Of a stretch of DNA of 64,000 nucleotides, positions 61,127-61,512 are shown in pieces. Source of the stretch: Escherichia coli. Its GTDB lineage: Bacteria > Pseudomonadota > Gammaproteobacteria > Enterobacterales > Enterobacteriaceae. The stretch lies in assembly GCF_048403405.1 (NCBI RefSeq), contig NZ_CP183129.1; one strand, given 5' to 3'. Both the position numbers and the translations under genes were made by a program. Position 1 is the first letter of the stretch; each line of letters starts with the position of its first letter. Below the pieces are notes generated by a model, which was not told the DNA's origin, made no database searches, and saw only the letters and a program-made list of their open reading frames with translations.

Positions 61127-61346
61127 TACATAATCCTTCATTTATTTTAATTACAGTGATCCCTGTGAATATTACATCTGCAATATCCATTAATTCGCCA
61201 GATATATATGCAAGCACCATCATTTACTAAAACAAGTAAATAAACGAGAGATGGCCTTTGCAAAAGGCAAAATTAAGATATAGCAAACAAATAGATCACA
61301 TTGAATCTAATCGGTTTGGCTCTGGTGATGGCTACAGAAGGGCAAA

Positions 61347-61421
61347 TCAAGGGCGATGATCGACAATCTTGTTGTCAATATTGAACCATTTTGAGGTCAC
61401 ACATATATGTAAGATATTCAT
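61347..61421 (-). CDS. tnaC: tna operon leader peptide
   Basis: Minus-strand translation is exactly MNILHICVTSKWFNIDNKIVDHRP* (24 codons, Trp12, Pro24), about 220 nt upstream of tnaA. Confidence 0.93.
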   Translation of the reverse strand: MNILHICVTSKWFNIDNKIVDHRP

Positions 61422-61496
61422 AATGCACTTATCCTCGAAAGACACGAGGCTACAGTATAATACTCAAGAAATTTGTCTATTCTGAAATTGTTTAAA

Positions 61497-61512
61497 TGTG
61501 AATCGAATCACA
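61497..61512. promoter_or_regulatory. CRP (cAMP receptor protein) binding site of the tna promoter
   Basis: TGTGAATCGAATCACA = consensus TGTGA-N6-TCACA, upstream of tnaC on the minus strand. Confidence 0.8.

What the first reader, a model, noticed from the sequence alone, without database searches (positions are those of the whole stretch)
61127..61512. tna leader region intact (tnaC with Trp12/Pro24, about 220-nt spacer, consensus CRP site)
The TnaC peptide is exactly the canonical 24 residues and is preceded by a perfect CRP site, so tryptophan-induced antitermination and catabolite control are probably intact. The ShET2-like gene sits immediately upstream of this promoter on the opposite strand, so the two promoters are divergent and possibly interfering.
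Basis: partly seen in the sequence, partly recalled or inferred. Interest (0 to 1): 0.2.

Follow-up and report, generated by a model that had tools for sequence, protein, structure and literature searches.

The report
Intact E. coli tryptophanase leader region
This is the ordinary, well-known control region of the E. coli tryptophanase (indole) operon. It is fully intact and lies next to a horizontally acquired effector gene that replaced the DNA upstream of it but stopped just short of its CRP activator site.

Summary
On the minus strand, 61127-61515 holds the tnaCAB regulatory region. It has a CRP site with a perfect TGTGA-N6-TCACA core (61497-61512), the only one in the 64 kb window. tnaC (61421-61347) encodes the canonical 24-residue TnaC with W12, D16, I19, P24 and a UGA stop. 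An exactly 220-nt spacer precedes tnaA. Against K-12 there are no indels and 16 substitutions. None falls in the CRP core, the boxA-like CGCCCTTGA or the C-rich rut stretch, and the two in tnaC are synonymous. TnaA is 100% identical to K-12.

Eight differences cluster in the core promoter. There the window carries the majority and ancestral allele, shared with ST131, O157:H7 and E. albertii, and K-12 is the derived one.

The upstream gene (61821-63986, +) is a ShET2/EspL2-family effector. It sits at this same site in 767 of 5426 complete E. coli genomes. It replaced the ancestral ~145-bp mnmE-tna spacer, and the breakpoint lies 1-3 nt outside the CRP core, so the promoter is not displaced.

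The genes are divergent, with about 376 bp between the inferred tna start site and the effector ATG. Nothing supports interference. The locus is already annotated in RefSeq and is of low interest.

The parts
61494..61515 (-). CRP (CAP) binding site of the tna promoter. The 22-mer is AATTGTGATTCGATTCACATTT and the core TGTGA-N6-TCACA is at 61497-61512. Its centre (61504.5) lies about 59.5 bp upstream of the inferred start site.
   Evidence: It is the only perfect core in the window, against 0.06 expected. It is identical to K-12 at 21 of 22 positions, differing only at flank position 1 (A vs G). The core is invariant in the 7 E. coli strains aligned and in E. albertii.
61446..61493 (-). Core tna promoter. 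The likely -10 is TATACT at 61459-61454 (K-12 has TGT-AATAAT here). There is no good -35, as expected for a CRP-dependent promoter.
   Evidence: Alignment with K-12 shows 8 substitutions at -26..-22, -16, -14 and -10. The window allele is exact in 818 genomes and within 1-3 mismatches in 2983 more, while the K-12-like allele is in about 1585. It is shared by ST131, O157:H7 and, for the -10, by E. albertii. The consensus scan instead proposes TTCAGA-18-TATTAT at 61486-61457.
61445..61445 (-). Inferred transcription start (+1), placed by homology to the K-12 319-nt leader.
   Evidence: This is an inference. 61445..61127 is exactly 319 nt. The 319-nt leader length is recalled from Deeley & Yanofsky 1982 and Stewart & Yanofsky 1985, which could not be read here.
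61347..61421 (-). tnaC leader peptide gene, 24 codons plus UGA. Trp12 is at 61388-61386, Asp16 at 61376-61374, Ile19 at 61367-61365 and Pro24 at 61352-61350. The Shine-Dalgarno GAGGA is at 61436-61432.
   Evidence: There are two synonymous differences from K-12, at 61368 (Lys18 AAG/AAA) and 61356 (His22 CAT/CAC). The four critical residues are taken from PMC10941005.
61347..61355 (-). boxA-like sequence CGCCCTTGA, overlapping codons 23-24 and the stop codon.
   Evidence: It is identical to K-12. The assignment as boxA is from my own knowledge of Konan & Yanofsky 2000, which is not held in the library.
61306..61375 (-). C-rich, G-poor stretch (+71..+140) spanning the tnaC end and the first ~40 nt of the spacer. 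This is the rut (Rho loading) region.
   Evidence: The C-minus-G excess peaks here, at up to 15 C against 7 G per 40 nt. It is identical to K-12 apart from the two synonymous tnaC changes. [quoted passage not shown]
61127..61346 (-). The 220-nt tnaC-tnaA spacer, where Rho-dependent termination occurs and where Spot 42 is reported to pair.
   Evidence: It is the same length as in K-12. It has 4 substitutions, at 61254, 61188, 61186 and 61182. The four best predicted Spot 42 pairing sites are identical in the window and K-12. The Spot 42 target region is described in PMC5748587.
59711..61126 (-). tnaA, tryptophanase, 471 aa.
   Evidence: It is 100% identical in amino acids to K-12 TnaA.
58372..59619 (-). 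tnaB, tryptophan permease, 415 aa.
   Evidence: It has 3 substitutions against K-12 (I143L, T185S, A321G; window residue first).
61516..61820 (.). Island-side intergenic DNA, 34% GC. The part next to the CRP site (61517-61575) is variable, and 61680-61820 is nearly invariant among diverged island alleles. The latter is presumably the effector promoter and 5' UTR.
   Evidence: It has no homology with K-12, ST131 or E. albertii. Conservation pattern. GC content.
61821..63986 (+). ShET2/EspL2-family type III effector gene, 721 aa, intact, divergent from tna.
   Evidence: It matches Pfam Toxin_15 at 5.5e-48 over residues 140-385. It is 718/721 identical to the EAEC 042 protein. RefSeq names it 'ShET2/EspL2 family type III secretion system effector toxin'.

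Best explanation
The region is the standard tnaCAB control region of E. coli, unaltered in every element known to matter.

cAMP-CRP bound at 61494-61515 activates the promoter. RNA polymerase then transcribes a 319-nt leader. A ribosome translates the 24-codon tnaC. Without tryptophan it terminates at UGA and leaves, exposing the boxA/rut region, so Rho loads and terminates in the 220-nt spacer. With tryptophan, TnaC-tRNA(Pro) stays in the ribosome (W12, D16, I19 and P24 are required). The stalled ribosome masks rut, and transcription continues into tnaA and tnaB.

The upstream ShET2/EspL2-family effector gene arrived by a replacement that removed the ancestral ~145-bp mnmE-tna spacer. The replacement ended 1-3 nt outside the CRP core, leaving the promoter in place.

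Shown here: sequence identity and integrity of all parts, the position of the breakpoint, and the population distribution. Inferred: that the parts function as in K-12.
For: - TnaC is identical to K-12 and matches the family models.
- The CRP core is perfect and unique in the window.
- Between -69 and +319 there are no indels and 15 substitutions. None is in the CRP core, boxA or rut.
- TnaA is 100% identical and TnaB has 3 substitutions.
- The promoter allele is the commonest in 5400 genomes and occurs without the island in ST131 and E. albertii.
- Homology with island-free genomes starts at query position 292, which is window 61514.
- E. albertii and K-12 share a homologous short spacer, so the short form is ancestral.
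- The island form sits at one fixed site in 767 genomes, including O157:H7 and EAEC 042.
- The mechanism itself is described in PMC8429421, PMC12360218 and PMC10941005.
Against: - No expression data exist for this strain.
- The start site is placed by homology and from memory of the 319-nt leader. With that placement the CRP centre comes out at -59.5 rather than the -61.5 usual for class I promoters.
- The ancestral DNA upstream of -70 is gone, so any regulatory input that needed it would be lost. TorR has been reported to bind the tna promoter, but I could not establish where.
- Four substitutions lie in the distal spacer, where termination sites are located.
Confidence: 0.93

Rival explanations
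1. The leader is intact, but its output is changed by the neighbouring island. Possible routes are H-NS spreading from the AT-rich effector DNA, supercoiling coupling with the divergent effector promoter, or loss of an ancestral upstream operator in the replaced 145 bp.
For: The replaced DNA begins at -70, directly at the CRP site. The island-side DNA is 34-36% GC against 48% for the window. TorR is reported to bind somewhere in the tna promoter region (PMC5720752).
Against: - In a class I CRP promoter the activator and RNA polymerase contacts lie at or downstream of the CRP site (established knowledge).
- The tna leader itself is already 34% GC.
- There is no tor-box match (2 mismatches or fewer) in the K-12 spacer that was replaced, and the matches in the locus are at chance level.
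- The arrangement is stably kept in 767 genomes, including O157:H7, which is indole-positive by standard typing (established knowledge).
- The conserved part of the effector's upstream region is more than 170 bp from the CRP site.
Confidence: 0.12
2. The single CRP site acts in both directions, also placing the effector gene under catabolite control, as at known divergent CRP-dependent promoter pairs.
For: The CRP site is palindromic and lies at the exact island boundary. A weak candidate, TTGTGA-16-AATATT, lies on the + strand at 61531-61558. That would put a start site about 60 bp from the CRP centre (read directly from the sequence).
Against: - That candidate scores 8/12, below the scan threshold, and no + strand promoter-like site was reported in 61516-61820.
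- The DNA next to the CRP site is the least conserved part of the intergenic region among island alleles, whereas 61680-61820 is nearly invariant.
- A start site there would imply a ~255-nt 5' UTR.
Confidence: 0.06
3. The match is only a sequence coincidence or a decayed remnant, and the operon is not functional.
For: None found.
Against: The tnaC, tnaA and tnaB reading frames are intact and 99-100% identical in protein to K-12. The family models match with E-values down to 3.7e-20. The last 12 kb of the window are 100% identical to several complete human E. coli genomes in which these genes are annotated.
Confidence: 0.01

Closest known systems
E. coli K-12 tnaCAB leader and promoter (tnaC b3707, NC_000913.3 3888341-3888729)
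   Same: TnaC peptide, UGA stop, boxA-like CGCCCTTGA, rut stretch, 220-nt spacer, CRP core, and an identical TnaA.
   Different: There are 16 substitutions. Eight are in the core promoter: the window has TAT-TATACT where K-12 has the extended -10 TGT-AATAAT, and TTTCT where K-12 has AACTC at -26..-22. DNA upstream of -70 is unrelated.
The same locus in EAEC 042 and O157:H7 (effector gene between mnmE and tnaC), and 100% identical copies in TUM14771, 4621 and MS 69-1
   Same: Same gene order (mnmE, effector, tnaC), same breakpoints, and tnaC annotated in each.
   Different: In O157:H7 the effector is frameshifted and only about 91% identical. Its CRP flank reads AAATGTGA, one step closer to consensus.
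Class I CRP-dependent promoters (lac type)
   Same: A single CRP site about 60 bp upstream of the start site, and a poor -35.
   Different: The spacing computes to -59.5 with the recalled start site. It was not measured here.
EspL / OspD3 (ShET2) family of type III effectors, cysteine proteases that cleave RHIM proteins (PMC7459423)
   Same: The neighbouring gene carries the ShET2 N-terminal domain, PF07906.
   Different: It is 721 aa long, which is longer than I recall for EspL and OspD3 (about 550-565 aa). The domain starts at residue 140. The catalytic residues, secretion and substrate were not examined. No solved homologue was found.

Membership tests
tnaC/TnaC tryptophan-sensing ribosome-arrest leader | A 24-residue peptide with W12, D16, I19 and P24 | tested here: met
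   The translation is identical to K-12. It scores 71.1 bits on Pfam PF08053 and 44.3 bits on TIGR02616, both above their cut-offs. The residues are taken from PMC10941005.
tnaC/TnaC tryptophan-sensing ribosome-arrest leader | A UGA stop codon directly after Pro24 | tested here: met
   CCT TGA at 61352-61347.
tna Rho-dependent attenuator | A boxA-like sequence and a C-rich rut site at and just after the tnaC stop | tested here: met
   CGCCCTTGA and the following 101 nt are identical to K-12. A C>G excess is seen at +71..+140.
tna Rho-dependent attenuator | A spacer of about 220 nt followed by tnaA and tnaB | tested here: met
   The spacer is 220 nt. tnaA and tnaB are intact.
tna Rho-dependent attenuator | Tryptophan-induced antitermination in vivo or in vitro | not testable with these tools
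   This needs reporter, indole or toeprint assays.
CRP-activated (class I) promoter | A TGTGA-N6-TCACA site | tested here: met
   A perfect core at 61497-61512, unique in the window, against 0.06 expected.
CRP-activated (class I) promoter | Site centred near -61.5 (or one helical turn further) from the start site | tested here: inconclusive
   The centre is 59.5 bp upstream of a start site placed from the recalled 319-nt leader. The primary paper is not held.
CRP-activated (class I) promoter | cAMP-CRP-dependent transcription | not testable with these tools
   The literature states it for K-12 (PMC5720752).
Rfam RNA family for the leader | A match to a curated covariance model | tested here: not met
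   No match at E<=1 in 60900-62000. The tna leader works through a peptide and Rho rather than a conserved RNA fold, so this is expected.
ShET2/EspL2 type III effector (neighbouring gene) | The ShET2 N-terminal domain (PF07906) | tested here: met
   E = 5.5e-48, 164 bits against a cut-off of 25.
ShET2/EspL2 type III effector (neighbouring gene) | A Cys-His-Asp protease triad and type III secretion | not tested
   This lies outside the finding. There is no NCBIfam hit and no solved homologue.
Mobile genomic island at the mnmE (trmE) 3' end, SGI1-like | An integrase and flanking direct repeats of the mnmE 3' end | tested here: not met
   The insert is a single gene with no integrase. There is no copy of the last 18 bp of mnmE within 3 mismatches and no flanking direct repeats. 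Low GC is the only island trait.

The most novel reading that the evidence does not exclude
The replacement that brought in the effector gene ended exactly at the CRP site. The site's outer flank (AAT here, AAA in O157:H7, against GAT ancestrally) is therefore island DNA. This could rewire the locus in two ways. The one CRP site might serve both divergent genes, tying a type III effector to catabolite and indole physiology. Alternatively, the tna promoter might have lost ancestral upstream inputs and gained H-NS influence.
Probability: 0.07. Interest if true: 0.35.

Novelty: already known. Interest (0 to 1): 0.08.

Why it matters
It matters little beyond correct annotation. The strain is predicted to be indole-positive, with normal tryptophan induction and catabolite repression.

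Three points are modestly useful:
- K-12, the reference for all tna promoter work, carries the derived minority core-promoter allele.
- An acquired effector gene abuts the CRP site to within 1-3 nt in about 14% of complete E. coli genomes, without damaging the promoter.
- The short mnmE-tna spacer is ancestral, so this is a replacement and not a simple insertion.

Tried and rejected
- Rfam scan of 60900-62000 at E<=1 found nothing.
- I searched for island attachment repeats. The last 18 bp of mnmE has no copy within 3 mismatches, and no flanking direct repeats were found in strain 135. A 16-nt inverted match (15/16) between the mnmE 3' end and 61695-61710 is about what chance allows (roughly 0.1 expected).
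- A tor-box (CTGTTCATAT) search in the K-12 locus gave 4 hits against 4.7 expected, with none in the replaced spacer. A lost TorR site could therefore be neither shown nor excluded.
- A second CRP-like site at 61532-61547 has 2 mismatches. The window-wide count at that stringency is 24 against 27.8 expected, and the site is not conserved among island alleles. I rejected it.
- The consensus promoter scan found 2 sites against 3.5 expected. Its tna candidate (TTCAGA-18-TATTAT) sits 3 nt upstream of the -10 I prefer from the K-12 start site. This is not decisive.
- Unconstrained RNA duplex prediction with Spot 42 gave meaningless full-length duplexes. I replaced it with a 22-nt windowed scan.
- Konan & Yanofsky 2000, Deeley & Yanofsky 1982 and Bordi et al. 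2003 are not held. The boxA assignment, the 319-nt leader and the TorR site position therefore rest on memory or on secondary citations.
- Literature searches for this gene next to tnaC and for espL4 gave no description of the junction. I did not establish whether this gene is the one that VFDB calls espL4.

Full report
**What is at the coordinates**

The tna operon lies on the minus strand. The ORF list and the reverse-complement read give these features:
- tnaB at 58372-59619
- tnaA at 59711-61126 (ATG of MENFK at 61126)
- a spacer at 61127-61346
- tnaC at 61421-61347
- a palindromic CRP core at 61497-61512

tnaC encodes MNILHICVTSKWFNIDNKIVDHRP followed by TGA. It matches Pfam Tna_leader (3.7e-20) and NCBIfam tnaC_leader (1.1e-11), both above their curated cut-offs. 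TGTGA-N6-TCACA occurs once in the 64-kb window, against 0.06 expected from shuffles.

**Comparison with K-12**

I fetched NC_000913.3 3886500-3892500 and aligned it. A position-by-position comparison followed. From the CRP site to tnaA there are no indels and 16 substitutions. Relative to a start site at 61445 they fall at these positions:
- -70
- -26 to -22 (five positions)
- -16, -14 and -10
- +8
- +78 and +90
- +192
- +258, +260 and +264

The +78 and +90 changes are synonymous (Lys18 and His22 of TnaC). The CRP core is identical to K-12. So are the Shine-Dalgarno sequence, the boxA-like CGCCCTTGA that overlaps codons 23-24 and the stop, and the 101 nt after the stop.

The C-over-G excess typical of a Rho loading site peaks at +71..+140. 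That is where the literature places rut, immediately downstream of tnaC (PMC8429421; PMC12360218). The four residues reported as critical for tryptophan sensing, W12, D16, I19 and P24 (PMC10941005), are all present. TnaA is 100% identical to K-12 TnaA, and TnaB differs at three residues.

Spot 42 is reported to pair with the tnaC-tnaA intergenic region (PMC5748587). A windowed duplex scan with the K-12 spf sequence gave the same four best sites with the same energies in the window and in K-12. Rfam has no family for this leader. That is expected for a peptide- and Rho-based attenuator.

**The core-promoter differences are not a lesion**

Eight of the 16 differences cluster between -26 and -10. 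An 80-nt query across the CRP site and promoter gave three groups:

| Match to the window allele | Genomes |
|---|---|
| Exact | 818 |
| 1-3 mismatches | 2983 |
| K-12-like, about 90% identity | about 1585 |

A seven-strain alignment shows the window allele (TTTCT...GTATTATACT) in ST131, O157:H7 and strain 135. K-12 and strain CB7453 carry GTGTAATAAT at the -10; at -26..-22 they read AACTC and AATTC respectively. The E. albertii type strain has the window-type -10 and the window-type +8. K-12 therefore carries the derived allele. Read directly, both alleles offer a 5/6 -10 hexamer at the same place: TATACT here and AATAAT in K-12. The K-12 version is preceded by a TG, giving an extended -10.

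The start site itself is inferred. 61445 gives the 319-nt leader that I recall from the K-12 literature. The primary papers are not held. With that start site the CRP centre is at -59.5, so class I geometry is likely but not established here.

**The neighbour and the junction**

A megablast of the whole tnaA-to-effector intergenic region found 5404 genomes with a match. Only 765 of them cover the part beyond query position 292, which is window 61514. The rest, including K-12, lose homology there.

Annotated context shows the order mnmE, then a single ShET2/EspL2-family effector gene on the opposite strand, then tnaC. The gene matches Pfam Toxin_15 at 5.5e-48. It is 718/721 identical to the EAEC 042 protein. 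It occurs once per genome, at this site, in 767 of 5426 complete genomes, with alleles from 88 to 100% identical. It is frameshifted in O157:H7 strain MB9-1 and split by IS1 in strain TUM1226.

On the mnmE side, homology with K-12 ends right after the mnmE stop codon. The K-12 spacer of about 145 bp is therefore absent, which makes this a replacement and not a simple insertion. The E. albertii type strain has mnmE directly upstream, with a short spacer homologous to the K-12 spacer. The short form is therefore ancestral and the effector form is derived.

There is no integrase and no repeat of the mnmE 3' end. Low GC (34-36% against 48% for the window) is the only island signature. The right-hand breakpoint is 1-3 nt outside TGTGA. 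The flank reads GAT in K-12, AAT here and AAA in O157:H7. The island-borne flank is, if anything, closer to the CRP consensus.

**On 'divergent and possibly interfering'**

The orientation is divergent. The effector ATG (61821) is 306 bp from the CRP 22-mer and 376 bp from the inferred tna start site.

Among island alleles whose coding regions are only 88-91% identical, 61680-61820 is nearly invariant. The 60 bp next to the CRP site are the most variable part. This suggests that the effector's own control region lies near its start codon, away from the tna promoter.

No + strand promoter-like site passed the scan in the intergenic region. A second CRP-like site at 61532-61547 is at chance level and is not conserved. 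The same junction is kept in O157:H7, which is indole-positive by standard typing (established knowledge). I found nothing that supports interference, but it cannot be excluded without expression data.

One open point remains. TorR is reported to bind the tna promoter region (PMC5720752). I could not read the primary paper. Tor-box matches in the K-12 locus are at chance level, with none in the replaced spacer.

**Verdict**

This is the known tnaCAB leader and promoter, intact, in a known genomic arrangement. The last 12 kb of the window are 100% identical to several complete human E. coli genomes in which tnaC and the effector are already annotated. Novelty: already known. Interest: low.

Noticed in passing
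window 61454-61471 (compare L001 1886-1902): The tna core promoter is dimorphic across E. coli. The window allele (TTTCT...TAT-TATACT) is the majority form, and its -10 is shared with E. albertii. K-12 carries a derived allele (AACTC...TGT-AATAAT) with an extended -10 TG. All classical tna promoter work was done on the minority allele.
   Followed up: partly
L005 about 1660-1675 (strain 13P460A): In this strain tnaC ends in TAA instead of TGA, and a G>A change lies 5 nt downstream at the start of the rut stretch (CGCCCTTAATTTACCC). The stop codon identity is relevant to release-factor-dependent stalling.
   Followed up: no
L003 1023-3192 and hit H71 (NZ_CP135719.1): The effector gene next to tna is frameshifted in O157:H7 strain MB9-1 and interrupted by IS1 in strain TUM1226. 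It is intact in the window and in EAEC 042.
   Followed up: partly
window 61680-61820: The 140 bp upstream of the effector start codon are nearly invariant among alleles whose coding sequence is only 88-91% identical. They are much better conserved than the gene itself, which suggests a constrained promoter, 5' UTR or regulator site.
   Followed up: partly
window 61695-61710 (L002 12096-12111 vs 9618-9633): A 16-nt stretch (TGATGACCTGATGGGG) matches the mnmE 3' end at 15 of 16 positions, in inverted orientation. This is about chance level (roughly 0.1 expected), but it could be a relic of the event that brought in the effector gene.
   Followed up: partly
L014, L015, L016: Three short metagenome-assembled contigs labelled Bacillota, Clostridium and Collinsella carry the exact 28-nt E. 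coli tna CRP/promoter string. They are probably mis-binned E. coli DNA.
   Followed up: no
L002 9689-9734 (beyond the window's end): A 16-bp inverted repeat followed by a T-run lies between the mnmE stop and the effector stop. It is a likely bidirectional terminator that replaces the different hairpin found after mnmE in K-12.
   Followed up: no
L002 21528-23936: A second type III effector gene (espY4) lies about 6 kb downstream of tnaB in strain 135. This origin-proximal segment therefore holds more than one orphan effector gene.
   Followed up: no
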